A DNA stretch of 64,000 nucleotides from Escherichia coli (lineage in GTDB: Bacteria > Pseudomonadota > Gammaproteobacteria > Enterobacterales > Enterobacteriaceae), in NCBI RefSeq assembly GCF_003790525.1, contig NZ_CP033635.1, one strand, 5' to 3'. Shown here one piece after another: positions 39,701 to 42,700 of the stretch (the first letter of the stretch is position 1; the number at the start of each line of letters is the position of its first letter). The position numbers were made by a program.

Positions 39701-42700
39701 CGACCCGATCATGATCGCCGGGATCGATAAAATCATCGATGAAGTCAAAACCAGCGTTTCACGTAACCTGTCGCTCGACGATGACAGCATTCGCATCAAT
39801 TTCCACCTGTACGGCAAAAACGGGGTGATGGGCGACCATGAACCGATGCAAACTGCCGGGCATGAGCTGGGGATTGTCCTTGATGTAGTTGCACCGACCC
39901 AGGAAATTGCCAATAGCGTTTGCTCGCTGGTGCGCTCTACCATGCTGCACTACGGCTATGAAAACCGCATCGCTACCGCAGGCAATCTGGCGTTCCCGTT
40001 CTCCCCTTCTGATATCCAGGGCGGGCCGGTATACGAATTTTCCATATATCACCTGATTGAAGCCAACGACGCTCTGCGTTTTGATTTCCATATTGAACAG
40101 GTGACGCCAGAAGGAGTTCAGGCATGAAACAGTCAATTGTCTCACTGGCGCAAGTCATTCGTTCGAAAAATGCCGGACCTTACGAACTGGTTTTAGATAT
40201 TTTATTTAAAACGAAAGAAAACTATGAGCGAGTTAAATCATCAGGGCAATTAACCCCAGAACTGATTGCGCGCTTATATCATGTTGAACCTGACTTTATT
40301 CACCGTATTGTCTGGTTTGATCCTTCTAACGCAGTAAAAATCGTCATGCCACGAGATATTATCTCCGGGAATGTAGGTGACAATGATGTCTATGGTGCAC
40401 AGCAACATGCACCTTTATTAAATATGAGTTTCGATTTGTAAAAATCCGAATACTTTTAGCCAACTGACATCCCGTCACTTATTGCAGTTCAACACTTCAG
40501 CTATTTGTAAGGTTGTAATAGCAGGTAGATGCCTGAATCTCTATTCAGGCTTCTACTTCTCCTGATTCTGATTTATCGCCGTGCACCTGATGGAGGAAAA
40601 AATGAAGAAAATAAGTTTAACCACGATGATTCTTTTGGCGCTGGTACTTGGAATGATTATCGGCGTAGTGCTCAATAACACTGCTTCACCGGAAACCGCA
40701 AAACTCTATGCGCAAGAAATATCGATATTCACGACGATTTTCTTACGACTGATAAAAATGATTATCGCTCCGTTAGTGGTCTCTACCCTGGTGGTAGGTA
40801 TAGCTAAAATGGGAGATGCCAAAGCCCTTGGTCGTATTTTTTCTAAAACACTCTTTTTATTTATTTGCGCCTCATTGCTGTCAATCGCCTTAGGCTTGAT
40901 AACAGTAAATTTCTTCATGCCAGGCACAGGAATTAATTTTGTTGCACACGGAGCCGAAACCACCGGAGTGGTCGCGTCAGAACCCTTTACGCTAAAAGTA
41001 TTTATTTCGCATGCTTTCCCCACCAGCATTGTCGATGCCATGGCGCACAATGAAATTTTGCAAATCGTGGTGTTCTCAATTTTCCTCGGCTGTAGCCTGA
41101 CGGCGATTGGTGAGAAAGGCAGCGCCATCGTTCACGCCTTAGATTCGCTGGCACATGCCATGTTAAAGCTCACTGGCTACGTCATGCTCTTCGCTCCCCT
41201 GACCGTATTCGCCGCTATTTCAGCATTGATTGCTGAACGAGGACTGGCAGTTATGGTGAGCGCCGGGATCTTTATGGGTGAATTTTATTTCACCATGTTG
41301 TTACTTTGGGTGCTGCTTATCGGTCTGGCCATCGTTTATGTCGGCCCCTGCATCAGACGCCTGACCCGTGCCCTTTCGGAACCCGCCCTGCTGGCATTTA
41401 CCACATCCAGTTCTGAAGCGGCTTTTCCGGGAACGCTTGAAAAACTGGAGCAATTTGGCGTTTCCCCCAAAATTGCCAGCTTTGTCTTACCCATTGGCTA
41501 CTCATTTAATCTCGTTGGATCAATGGCCTACTGCTCCTTCGCCACAGTTTTCATCGCCCAGGCCTGCAATATCCATTTATCCATCGGTGAGCAAATCACC
41601 ATGCTGTTGATCCTGATGTTGACCTCGAAAGGAATGGCTGGCGTACCACGCGCCTCAATGGTGGTTATCGCCGCCACGCTCAACCAGTTCAATATTCCGG
41701 AAGCGGGGCTGATCTTGCTGATGGGCGTTGATCCGTTCCTTGATATGGGGCGTTCCGCGACAAACGTCATGAGCAACGCAATGGGCGCTGCGATGGTGAG
41801 TCGGTGGGAAGGCGAACATTTCGGCGAGGGCTGTCGGGGTAAAGCATTAAAACCCAATGAATCGAACGTTGCTCTGCCCTGAGGGGGATCTTAAGCAATC
41901 AGAAGCCAATGACTACGCATTTTTATAAGCCGGATCATGAAGTTAGACGGCAATTAAGTAAAACTAACGTTTAAGGTGAAAAGTGAAATATGTCCAAACC
42001 ATTTATCTGGCAAGAACCGTTTCTACAAAATAAAGACGGTACAGAATATACATTAATTAGCGATCAACATATTACAGTAACGGAATTAGACGGCGAAGAA
42101 GTGATAAAAATCGCTCCTGAAGCATTAACGCTGCTTGCCCGGCAGGCATTTTATGAAGCCTCTTTTTTCTTACGTTCCGCTCATTTGCAACAGGTCGCCA
42201 GCATTCTTAACGATCCGCACGCCAGTAGTAATGATAAATACGTTGCGTTGCAGTTATTACGTAATGCTGAAGTCTCAGCAAAAGGGGTATTACCCAACTG
42301 TCAGGATACCGGCACCGCAACTATTGTTGCCAGTAAAGGGCAACAGATATGGACCGGAGGTAACGACGCTGAAGCCTTAAGCAAAGGCATTTACACCACT
42401 TTTCAGGAAAATAATCTGCGCTTTTCACAAAATGCGCCACTGGATATGTTTACCGAAGTCAATACGCAAACCAATCTCCCGGCGCAGATTGATATCAGCG
42501 CCGTCGCTGGTGATGAGTACCATTTTCTCTGTATTAATAAAGGGGGCGGCTCTGCCAATAAAGCCGCGCTTTATCAGGAAACCAAATCCCTATTGCAACC
42601 AGAAAAACTGACCGCATTTTTAATCGAAAAAATGAAATCGCTGGGCACCGCTGCCTGCCCGCCTTACCACATCGCCTTTGTCGTCGGAGGGCTTTCAGCC

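What the first reader, a model, noticed from the sequence alone, without database searches (positions are those of the whole stretch)
40531..41882. DAACS transporter embedded in the cluster, preceded by a hairpin
A GltP/DctA-family symporter lies between the DUF pair and fumD, consistent with uptake of glutamate or a C4/C5-dicarboxylate substrate. It is separated from the upstream genes by a 160-bp spacer containing a perfect 8-bp inverted repeat (GCCTGAAT/ATTCAGGC), which could act as a partial terminator or attenuator giving differential expression of the second half of the island (transporter, fumD, adenosyltransferase).
Basis: partly seen in the sequence, partly recalled or inferred. Interest (0 to 1): 0.35.

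Follow-up and report, generated by a model that had tools for sequence, protein, structure and literature searches.

The report
Glutamate-island transporter with conserved leader hairpin
The gene is an already-annotated, uncharacterised glutamate/aspartate-type importer inside the known B12-dependent glutamate-fermentation island of E. coli, and the hairpin in front of it is a real, evolutionarily conserved RNA stem-loop of the transporter's untranslated leader rather than a classical terminator.

Summary
A 426-aa DAACS/SLC1 transporter is encoded at 40602-41882; the true start is the ATG at 40602, behind a GGAGGA ribosome-binding site. A 160-nt spacer precedes it and holds the 8-bp inverted repeat at 40531-40550.

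The window is an E. coli SMS-3-5-type chromosome. The cluster is the methylaspartate-pathway island described by Kronen & Berg (2015), who already drew this gene as "GltP". About 21% of complete E. coli genomes carry it.

The protein is neither a GltP nor a DctA orthologue. It keeps the amino-group Asp and the side-chain Arg, and it has the full H+-coupling signature. L-glutamate/aspartate:H+ uptake is therefore the best prediction and dicarboxylate uptake is unlikely. It has lost the conserved Asp of the NMDGT motif (NLVGS).

The hairpin is larger than reported: 40525-40556, 13-14 bp, -18 kcal/mol. It is single-copy and homologous to a stem (P2) in 30+ enterobacterial leaders, where 13 of 13 pairs show compensatory changes.

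Every one of 49 orthologous junctions has a strong hairpin, but most lack a U-tract. The leader is also kept in front of a stand-alone orthologue in Trabulsiella. I read it as an RNA-level expression-uncoupling element with an unresolved mechanism. Interest is modest.

The parts
40124..40441 (+). DUF4387 gene. It is the last of the tightly packed enzyme genes (glmS-glmL-glmE-mal-atuA-like-DUF4387) and forms the upstream boundary of the spacer.
   Evidence: Pfam PF14330, 134 bits. RefSeq annotation. Neighbouring genes overlap or lie no more than 18 nt apart.
40442..40601 (+). 160-nt untranslated spacer, which serves as the leader of the transporter gene.
   Evidence: Sequence. No + strand sigma-70-like site in the scan. 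No Rfam match at E <= 10.
40499..40604 (+). Stretch recognised by covariance model R1. The model was built only from non-Escherichia leaders and describes a P0 helix enclosing the P2 stem-loop, followed by the ribosome-binding site.
   Evidence: This is the only hit in the 64-kb window: 30.6 bits, E 3.6e-5. It is aligned in A3.
40525..40556 (+). Extended hairpin P2: GUAGA-U-GCCUGAAU, loop CUCU, AUUCAGGC-U-UCUAC. It has 13 bp plus a U.U mismatch at 40530/40551.
   Evidence: -18.1 kcal/mol, z -7. Most E. coli carry A at 40551, which gives a perfect 14-bp stem; three of four other stem SNPs keep pairing. In the homologous stem, 13 of 13 pairs show compensatory change.
40531..40550 (+).
   Evidence: It is listed as weakly terminator-like with tail TTCTACTTCT.
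40506..40585 (+). Possible long-range helix (40506-40518 pairing with 40573-40585) enclosing P2 in E. coli. It rests on energy prediction only.
   Evidence: Present in the MFE and centroid folds of 40505-40610. In the model's register, 3 of 7 P0 pairs are non-canonical in E. coli, so this part is uncertain.
40593..40598 (+). Ribosome-binding site GGAGGA. The (G)AUGGAG context is conserved in all orthologues.
40602..41882 (+). DAACS/SLC1 transporter, 426 aa. It belongs to the GVPRAS subclade and carries NLVGS in place of NMDGT.
41883..41989 (+). 107-nt transporter-fumD spacer with no significant structure.
   Evidence: z +0.7.
41990..44254 (+). fumD (41990-43642) and cobO (43652-44254), the downstream genes that share whatever transcript passes the hairpin.
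   Evidence: NCBIfam NF011921 1285 bits; TIGR00708. RefSeq annotation. FumD biochemistry in PMC4682846.
44258..44284 (+). Strong stem-loop at the end of the gene row, facing the convergent LysR gene. It is used here as a positive control for a terminator.
   Evidence: 11 pairs, 9 of them GC. Discriminant +2.9.

Best explanation
The ORF at 40602-41882 encodes a secondary transporter of the glutamate-transporter (DAACS/SLC1) fold. It belongs to a distinct, uncharacterised subfamily. It most likely imports L-glutamate (and aspartate) with protons, feeding the B12-dependent glutamate mutase -> methylaspartase -> FumD pathway encoded around it.

The hairpin is the E. coli version of stem P2 of a conserved, structured, untranslated leader RNA that sits directly in front of the transporter gene in Enterobacteriaceae.

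I think it acts at the RNA level to uncouple expression of the transporter-fumD-cobO segment from the translationally coupled enzyme genes upstream. In this view it is a stable stem-loop that serves as a decay barrier or processing determinant, and possibly as a leaky, factor-dependent stop. It is not a canonical Rho-independent terminator.

Shown here:
- family membership and binding-site residues of the transporter;
- existence, extent, single-copy status and homology of the stem;
- compensatory evolution of the stem;
- absence of a U-tract in most orthologues;
- retention of the leader with a stand-alone transporter gene.

Inferred: the substrate, proton coupling, co-transcription, and the actual molecular effect of the stem.
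For: Transporter:
- PF00375 scores 343 bits.
- It aligns end to end with GltPh and with the reconstructed Anc-Int transporter, E 1e-54 to 1e-68.
- The TM8 motif LDMGRSATN keeps D394, R397 and N401. E. coli GltP has LDMARTALN and DctA has MSEARALTN. D394 and R397 set the preference for acidic amino acids over dicarboxylates and over neutral amino acids (PMC12668577).
- The H+-type signature A92, L311, N405 and E279 is complete.
- The gene order DUF4387 -> transporter is kept in 49 loci from five enterobacterial families.
- Most Enterobacteriaceae relatives (Citrobacter, Enterobacter and allies) have a roughly 1.2-kb gap between the transporter and fumD; the one gene tested there (Citrobacter braakii, L025) is a glutaminase.

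Hairpin:
- -18.1 kcal/mol, z -7.
- The majority E. coli allele makes a perfect 14-bp stem, and stem SNPs are mostly pair-preserving.
- All 49 orthologous spacers hold a strong hairpin; only 3 of 735 dinucleotide shuffles did as well.
- RNAalifold and pair counts give 12/13 (A1) and 13/13 (A3) P2 pairs with compensatory change, and 94% of cells paired against 25-45% when the partner is slid.
- A model built without any Escherichia sequence finds the window element as its only hit.

Not a classical terminator: tails are U-poor and the discriminant is negative for all junction hairpins.

Tied to the transporter: the whole P1-P0-P2 leader is retained before a stand-alone orthologue in Trabulsiella. 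Morganella copy B, which has its own upstream region, also carries a hairpin upstream of its start codon.
Against: - No expression data exist. Kronen & Berg could not find conditions that switch the cluster on. Co-transcription, processing and any 3' end at the stem are therefore unobserved.
- In Yersinia and Hafnia the junction hairpin does have a U-rich tail and could be a plain terminator followed by a separate promoter. One mechanism may not fit all lineages.
- Unpaired segments of the leader (AUUCAUGCGGUUGGUCACAACAGG, CCCUACA) are more conserved than a generic decay barrier would need. That hints at a specific partner.
- E. coli lacks P1 and the P0 sequences.
- The substrate is inferred from four or five residues only. 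Loss of the NMDGT Asp could change the coupling mode.
- The A3 alignment was fitted to the model, which favours pairing counts.
Confidence: 0.5

Rival explanations
1. The hairpin is a weak or partial intrinsic terminator. It stops a fraction of RNA polymerases after DUF4387, so the transporter, fumD and cobO are made at a lower level.
For: The simple scan lists 40531-40550 as terminator-like with tail TTCTACTTCT. The E. coli 3' flank is pyrimidine-rich. In Yersinia the junction hairpin is followed by UUUUUUC and passes the scan. Morganella has a small second hairpin with a U-rich tail.
Against: The discriminant is -22 to -24 for the E. coli stem against +2.9 for the cobO terminator. The U-rich bases next to the inner stem are themselves paired in the extended stem. 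Homologous P2 stems in 27 relatives are followed by ACCCUACAC, about 1 U in 10, and no terminator-like site is scored in Citrobacter. The leader is kept where there is no upstream operon to terminate.
Confidence: 0.18
2. The spacer is the 5' leader of a transcript that starts at an internal, activator-dependent promoter. The stem-loop sits at or near its 5' end, where it stabilises the transporter mRNA or gates translation.
For: E. coli has a -10-like TGTAAT at 40514-40519, which would place a start at about 40526, the foot of the stem (read). Morganella copy B and Trabulsiella clearly have their own upstream promoter regions and still carry hairpins. The stem lies at a fixed 41-47 nt from the start codon in the Escherichia/Citrobacter group.
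Against: No + strand promoter-like site is found in the spacer of E. coli or Citrobacter. The TGTAAT is E. coli-specific; relatives have GGTCAC there. No -35 element is present. No motif is shared with the glmS upstream region that would suggest a common LysR operator.
Confidence: 0.15
3. The P1-P0-P2 leader is a specific cis-regulatory RNA. It would be bound by a metabolite, a protein or a small RNA, and it would switch transporter expression (translation or Rho-dependent attenuation) in response to a signal such as glutamate or cobalamin status.
For: There are two covarying stems plus strongly conserved unpaired segments and a conserved P1 loop (GCUGUAUCAC). The element is retained with the stand-alone gene. 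G-poor, C/U-rich tracts lie between P2 and the ribosome-binding site.
Against: There is no Rfam match at E <= 10. P2 varies freely in length (8-17 bp) and loop, like a generic stem. E. coli lacks P1 and the conserved junction sequences, and the Pseudescherichia group lacks P2, so no common ligand pocket is evident. A GcvB pairing test was negative for E. coli and most lineages. The aligned taxa are fairly close relatives.
Confidence: 0.12
4. The palindrome is a DNA operator for a dimeric regulator. The candidates are ArgR, because TGAAT-N4-ATTCA equals the ARG-box core (consensus recalled from my own knowledge), or the island's LysR-type regulator.
For: The E. coli core CCTGAATCTCTATTCAGG matches the ARG-box core half-sites exactly (read).
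Against: No second ARG box lies at the usual 2-3 bp distance. The arms differ completely in relatives while pairing is kept (Citrobacter GGCGTGCGTCTGAGCTG..., Trabulsiella GGCACATGTTTGACC...), and arm length varies. This is the pattern of an RNA stem, not of a conserved protein site. The LysR protein is conserved at 60-87% identity, yet no conserved operator is shared with the glmS upstream region.
Confidence: 0.03

Closest known systems
E. coli GltP (glutamate/aspartate:H+ symporter) and the H+-coupled branch of the DAACS/SLC1 family (GltT of Bacillus)
   Same: Same fold and length. TM8 keeps D394, R397 and N401. HP1 has SSSE, including the putative protonation Glu. The H+-type substitutions A92, L311 and N405 are present.
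   Different: Identity to GltP is only 39% and the NCBIfam GltP equivalog score is 302 against a cut-off of 638. The NMDGT-motif Asp is replaced by Val in every cluster-linked orthologue. HP2 carries GVPRAS, with an Arg where GltP and GltPh have Gly. No transport data exist.
DctA C4-dicarboxylate:H+ symporter
   Same: Same family. The NCBIfam DctA subfamily model gives the nominally best hit, at 312 bits.
   Different: The score is below the cut-off of 513, and identity is 34%. DctA has Ser where this protein has the amino-group-binding Asp (MSEARALTN versus LDMGRSATN).
Intercistronic stem-loops that give differential expression within operons. Examples recalled from my own knowledge: REP elements in malE-malF and hisJ-hisQ, and the puf operon hairpins of Rhodobacter.
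   Same: A stable stem-loop in an untranslated gap between highly needed soluble-protein genes and a membrane-transporter gene. There is no good U-tract. It is expected to act as a 3'->5' decay barrier.
   Different: It is single-copy and not a REP: only island-carrying genomes match, and no REP consensus lies nearby. It is kept in front of a stand-alone transporter gene. It is embedded in a leader with conserved unpaired sequence.
Methylaspartate-pathway ('glutamate fermentation') gene cluster of Enterobacteriaceae described by Kronen & Berg 2015 (PMC4682846)
   Same: It is the same cluster: glmS/L/E, mal, DUF1446 (AtuA-like), 'GltP', FumD, CobA and an LTTR, as in their Fig 5.
   Different: That paper does not analyse the transporter sequence or the intergenic RNA structure. 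It leaves the expression conditions and the fate of citramalate open.

Membership tests
DAACS / SLC1 (Pfam SDF, PF00375) | Full-length match to the family profile above the gathering score | tested here: met
   343.4 bits against 27.9, covering residues 6-402 of 426. E 1e-54 to GltPh over residues 8-404.
DAACS / SLC1 (Pfam SDF, PF00375) | Conserved NMDGT (N-M/L-D-G-T/S) loop in TM7 | tested here: not met
   The sequence is NLVGS: Asn, Gly and Ser/Thr are kept, and the Asp is replaced by Val in all cluster-linked orthologues. Relatives at 56% identity or less have NLDG. Loss of the Asp recurs in this subclade, in about 17 of 100 representatives with a readable motif. It is therefore a variant member, not an outsider.
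DAACS / SLC1 (Pfam SDF, PF00375) | Substrate-binding residues of TM8 (D394, R397, N401 in GltPh numbering) and the serine-rich HP1 | tested here: met
   LDMGRSATN and TTSSSE.
GltP orthologue (NCBIfam NF008440 equivalog) | Score above the curated cut-off | tested here: not met
   302 bits against a cut-off of 638. Identity to K-12 GltP is 39%.
DctA (NCBIfam NF002461 / NF009587) | Score above the cut-off, and Ser instead of Asp at the amino-group site | tested here: not met
   312 and 275 bits against cut-offs of 513 and 570. Asp is present.
H+-coupled class of glutamate transporter homologues (signature of PMC12668577) | [T/S]92 replaced by a hydrophobic residue, M311L, D405N, and S279E | tested here: met
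   A92, L311, N405 and E279, read from the alignments to GltPh and GltP. Coupling itself is not testable with these tools.
Rho-independent (intrinsic) terminator | G+C-rich stem directly followed by a U-tract | tested here: not met
   The stem is present, but the tail has 4 U in 9 nt after the extended stem. The discriminant is -22. Orthologous P2 stems have about 1 U in 10.
REP / BIME repetitive extragenic palindrome | Many copies per genome | tested here: not met
   The 44-nt query matches only the 1123 island-carrying genomes, once per genome. The two 'places' arise because the palindrome matches both strands.
Any Rfam 15 family (riboswitch, leader, sRNA) | Covariance-model match | tested here: not met
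   Nothing at E <= 10 in the spacer of the window or of Citrobacter braakii.
ArgR operator (ARG boxes) | Two 18-bp ARG boxes 2-3 bp apart, conserved in orthologous promoters | tested here: not met
   Only one core-matching box, in E. coli only. No adjacent box, and the sequence is not conserved in relatives.
Structured RNA under selection (generic) | Base pairs maintained by compensatory substitutions across species | tested here: met
   P2 has 12/13 (A1) and 13/13 (A3) pairs with double changes, and P1 has 6/9. No shuffle in 500 reached the observed values, and slid controls pair at 25-45%.

The most novel reading that the evidence does not exclude
The P1-P0-P2 leader is a previously undescribed cis-regulatory RNA class of Enterobacteriaceae. 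It would sense a metabolite or bind a dedicated factor to switch on glutamate import, and with it fumD and cobO, for B12-dependent glutamate fermentation. A second, independent novelty is that the transporter has lost the NMDGT aspartate and may work as a cation-independent exchanger rather than a symporter.
Probability: 0.12. Interest if true: 0.65.

Novelty: new member of a known kind. Interest (0 to 1): 0.33.

Why it matters
The island is carried by about a fifth of complete E. coli genomes. According to Kronen & Berg it is in about 91% of O157:H7 strains and in many opportunistic enterobacteria. Nobody has yet found conditions that express it, and the end of the pathway is unknown.

Three results give concrete handles for switching the pathway on and measuring it:
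- The transporter is a GltP-like acidic-amino-acid importer, not a dicarboxylate carrier.
- The only long untranslated gap in the cluster holds a selected RNA structure that travels with the transporter gene.
- That structure is not a plain terminator.

For transporter biologists, a natural clade lacking the NMDGT aspartate is a useful test case for ion-coupling models. None of this overturns current understanding.

Tried and rejected
- **ARG box / ArgR operator.** The E. coli core TGAAT-N4-ATTCA looked like an ARG box. I rejected this because there is no second box and no sequence conservation, while pairing is conserved.
- **REP element.** GTAG...CTAC feet and a GCCTGA...TCAGGC stem resemble REPs. 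I rejected this because the element is single-copy in 5,426 genomes and the REP consensus search in the window gave only chance-level hits.
- **GcvB sRNA target.** CA-rich motifs such as CACAACAG are present. RNAduplex energies against GcvB nt 61-95 were no better than shuffles for E. coli (z +0.4) and most lineages. Only Hafnia (z -2.3) and Yersinia aldovae carry a 12-nt match.
- **Known RNA families.** There is no Rfam hit.
- **Shared operator with the glmS upstream region.** No consistent shared motif was found.
- **Sigma-70 promoter inside the spacer.** None was scored on the + strand in E. coli or Citrobacter.
- **Leader peptide or upstream ORF.** The upstream AUG in GAUGGAG is in frame in E. 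coli but out of frame or followed by a stop in relatives. P2 indels are not multiples of three.
- **Expression literature.** Searches for ECs0757-0762, guessed EDL933 Z-numbers (Z0888-Z0893) and transcriptome papers found nothing usable. A search for DUF4387 found no paper. One search was wasted on the prefix 'atua'.
- **Genomic context of the 52-56% relatives** (Chitinophaga, Zymomonas, a gammaproteobacterial MAG). The neighbours are unrelated, so they give no clue to the substrate.
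Full report
**What and where.** The window matches the E. coli SMS-3-5 chromosome at 100% identity over the queried stretch, window 40100-42000. RefSeq annotates the following gene row there:
- an AtuA-family protein and a DUF4387 protein;
- a "dicarboxylate/amino acid:cation symporter";
- a class I fumarate hydratase and cobO;
- a convergent LysR-type regulator.

The row lies between cydAB and sucABCD. K-12 carries mngR-mngA-mngB in the same slot. The stretch is present in 1124 of 5426 complete E. coli genomes.

This is the cluster published by Kronen & Berg (PLoS One 2015, PMC4682846). 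Their Fig 5 already labels this gene "GltP, glutamate transporter". They characterised FumD as a mesaconase, could not find conditions that express the cluster, and left the fate of citramalate open.

**Checking the observation.**
- The ORF listed mechanically starts at GTG 40581. The ATG at 40602, with GGAGGA at 40593-40598, is the start chosen by RefSeq and the one conserved in relatives. The product is 426 aa.
- DUF4387 ends at 40441, so the spacer is exactly 160 nt.
- The 8-bp inverted repeat GCCTGAAT/ATTCAGGC with a CUCU loop is at 40531-40550.
- Such a repeat alone is weak evidence. About 7 are expected per 64 kb from Markov-1 simulations and 25 (nested ones included) are seen. The simple terminator scan is not enriched over shuffles.
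- The stem extends to 40525-40556: 13 bp and one U.U mismatch, -18.1 kcal/mol, z = -7, with 0 of 200 shuffles as stable.

**The transporter.**
- Pfam SDF scores 343 bits.
- NCBIfam places it below the cut-offs of both DctA (312 against 513) and GltP (302 against 638).
- Identity to K-12 GltP is 39% and to DctA 34%.
- It aligns over its whole length with GltPh and best with the reconstructed Anc-Int aspartate transporter.
- In TM8 it reads LDMGRSATN. The Asp that binds the substrate amino group and the Arg that binds the side-chain carboxylate are both present, as in GltP (LDMARTALN). DctA has Ser at the Asp position (MSEARALTN). These two residues set the preference for acidic amino acids over dicarboxylates and over neutral amino acids (PMC12668577).
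- That paper's signature of H+-coupled members is [T/S]92 to a hydrophobic residue, M311L, D405N and the putative protonation site S279E. The signature is complete here: A92, L311, N405, E279.

I therefore predict a GltP-like glutamate/aspartate:H+ symporter. Uptake of mesaconate or C4-dicarboxylates is unlikely.

Two peculiarities stand out:
- The Asp of the NMDGT loop is Val (NLVGS) in every cluster-linked orthologue, while all relatives at 56% identity or less keep Asp.
- HP2 carries GVPRAS, with an Arg at the tip. This is a trait of the whole subclade.

Loss of that Asp is not unique. Among 150 representatives from 1.84 billion proteins, about 17 of the 100 with a readable motif lack it. 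Its consequence for coupling is unknown.

**The hairpin in other genomes.** A scan of one genome per species returned 80 loci.
- In 49 of them the order DUF4387 -> transporter is kept. These include Escherichia, Citrobacter, Enterobacter, Salmonella, Buttiauxella, Yokenella, Yersinia, Hafnia, Budvicia and Morganella.
- Every one of the 49 spacers (58-359 nt) contains a strong local hairpin of -13 to -40 kcal/mol. Only 3 of 735 dinucleotide-preserving shuffles did as well, and the median z is -6.3.
- The stem sequences differ between lineages. Examples are E. coli GUAGAUGCCUGAAU, Citrobacter GGCGUGCGUCUGAGCUG, Yersinia CGGUGCAUUG and Morganella UCGAUGUGGCGUACGGGG.

**Covariation.** In an alignment of 30 leaders from Escherichia, Citrobacter, Enterobacter, Salmonella and Buttiauxella (A1), RNAalifold predicts two stems:
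- P1 lies soon after the DUF4387 stop codon.

Pair counts give 6/9 (P1) and 12/13 (P2) pairs with changes on both sides. 93.7% of cells are paired, against 28-41% when partners are slid, and no shuffle in 500 reaches the observed values. A third, enclosing helix P0 (GGUUGGU/ACCAGCC) is compatible with the data but almost invariant, so it is unproven.

**Homology of the E. coli stem.** I built a covariance model from 27 non-Escherichia leaders only.
- It finds one hit in the 64-kb window, 40499-40604, at 30.6 bits and E 3.6e-5, with the E. coli stem aligned to P2.
- On the model-fitted alignment of 40 sequences, 13/13 P2 pairs show compensatory change. This alignment leans towards the model.

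**Variation within E. coli.** The window's U.U mismatch is the minority allele.
- About 1058 of 1124 records differ from the window by a few percent over the stem region, and all five sampled variants have A at 40551, which gives a perfect 14-bp stem.
- Of four other stem SNPs seen, three keep pairing (A-U to G.U twice, plus the mismatch repair) and one breaks a pair.

**What the hairpin is not.**
- It is not a REP element. The 44-nt query hits only island-carrying genomes, once each.
- It is not in Rfam.
- It is not a conserved protein operator, because the arms change sequence and length while keeping complementarity. The ARG-box look of the E. coli core is therefore a coincidence.
- It is not a convincing intrinsic terminator. 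The bases after the inner stem are part of the extended stem, and after that only 4 of 9 are U. A d'Aubenton-Carafa-type discriminant (formula recalled from memory, energies from ViennaRNA) is -22 for the E. coli stem and +2.9 for the cobO terminator at 44258-44284.
- P2 stems of relatives are followed by ACCCUACAC, and nothing terminator-like or promoter-like is scored in the Citrobacter spacer.

In Yersinia and Hafnia the junction hairpin is homologous in position and partly in sequence to P1. It does carry a U-rich tail and is followed by an AT-rich stretch. In those lineages a real terminator plus a separate promoter is plausible.

**Which gene the element belongs to.** Two natural experiments bear on this question.
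- In Trabulsiella odontotermitis an 80%-identical orthologue stands alone. No glm, mal or DUF4387 gene lies within 10 kb, and it has a 500-nt AT-rich upstream region with promoter-like sites and a divergent gene. It nevertheless keeps the complete P1-P0-P2 leader (50 bits), with P2 rebuilt from A-U pairs.
- In Morganella the cluster is split and the transporter is duplicated. Copy A follows DUF4387. Copy B heads its own unit with fumD and cobO, behind a strong terminator and a 480-nt upstream region, and it also has a modest hairpin 55-95 nt before its start that differs between species while keeping pairing.

The element therefore travels with the transporter gene. Its role is not only to finish the upstream transcript.

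**Most likely mechanism.** The six upstream genes overlap or are at most 18 nt apart. The 160-nt gap is the one place where translation and transcription are uncoupled. The next gap, between the transporter and fumD, has no significant structure (z +0.7).

I propose that the stem-loop is an RNA-level punctuation mark of the transporter's leader. It would act as a barrier or processing determinant that gives the enzyme segment and the transporter-fumD-cobO segment different fates, and possibly as a leaky, factor-dependent stop. This works like the intercistronic stem-loops of malEFG or hisJQMP (own knowledge), but the element is not a member of the REP family.

The conserved unpaired segments and the retention in Trabulsiella leave room for a specific regulatory RNA. 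I give that reading about 12%. The plain weak-terminator reading gets about 18% and an internal-promoter 5' stem about 15%. No expression data exist to decide between them.

**Verdict.** The transporter and the cluster are already known and annotated. The conserved leader structure appears to be undescribed, but it is of a familiar kind. Interest is modest.

Noticed in passing
window 38757-40441; loci L002-L056: The AtuA-like (DUF1446) and DUF4387 genes overlap by 4 nt. They are conserved as a pair after the methylaspartase gene in nearly all of the 49 orthologous clusters. Neither matches any NCBIfam model, and no paper in the library mentions DUF4387. They are candidates for the missing step after citramalate that Kronen & Berg could not find.
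   Followed up: partly
window 32217-33161 and 33242-33664; gap 33665-34210: Two co-oriented hypothetical proteins (314 and 140 aa) with no Pfam or NCBIfam match lie upstream of glmS. A 546-nt gap follows them and has no Rfam hit, so in particular no cobalamin riboswitch. The main promoter and regulatory region of the island should lie here.
   Followed up: partly
window 31400-45900 versus K-12 (L090): The whole island occupies the chromosomal slot between sucD/sdhX and cydA. K-12 holds mngR-mngA-mngB in that slot, so the two are alternative cargo at one locus.
   Followed up: yes
L088 (E. coli strain 100416) 5249-6075: An IS1 copy replaces DUF4387 and the left arm of the hairpin. The junction falls at window position 40532, which leaves the transporter behind half a stem. 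This is a natural mutant for testing the element.
   Followed up: partly
L033-L039 and L041-L047 (Morganella): The cluster is split about 36 kb apart and the transporter is duplicated (78% and 74% identity to the E. coli protein). One copy ends the enzyme operon and the other heads a transporter-fumD-cobO unit.
   Followed up: partly
L025 11431-12432 and most Citrobacter/Enterobacter loci: In Citrobacter braakii (L025) a glutaminase gene (PF04960) sits between the transporter and fumD. Most other Enterobacteriaceae loci have a gap of about 1.2 kb at that position, whose content was not checked. E. coli, Salmonella arizonae and the Pseudescherichia group have no such gap. This agrees with Fig 5 of Kronen & Berg.
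   Followed up: partly
window 40529-40531 and 40590-40592: E. coli-specific AUGs occur in the leader. One lies inside the stem and opens an out-of-frame ORF of about 50 codons that overlaps the transporter start. The other lies 12 nt upstream of the start, in frame, and has no ribosome-binding site. Neither is conserved in relatives.
   Followed up: partly
L048 and L056 spacers (Hafnia, Yersinia aldovae): An exact CACAACAUCAG motif, complementary to the GcvB R1 region, lies 50-60 nt before the start codon. The pairing energy beats shuffles only in Hafnia (z -2.3), and the motif is absent from E. coli.
   Followed up: partly
window 45766-45783 (- strand): A stem-loop with a U-run lies just downstream of sucD. 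In K-12 the same position holds the 3'-UTR sRNA SdhX. Rfam reported nothing here at E <= 10.
   Followed up: no
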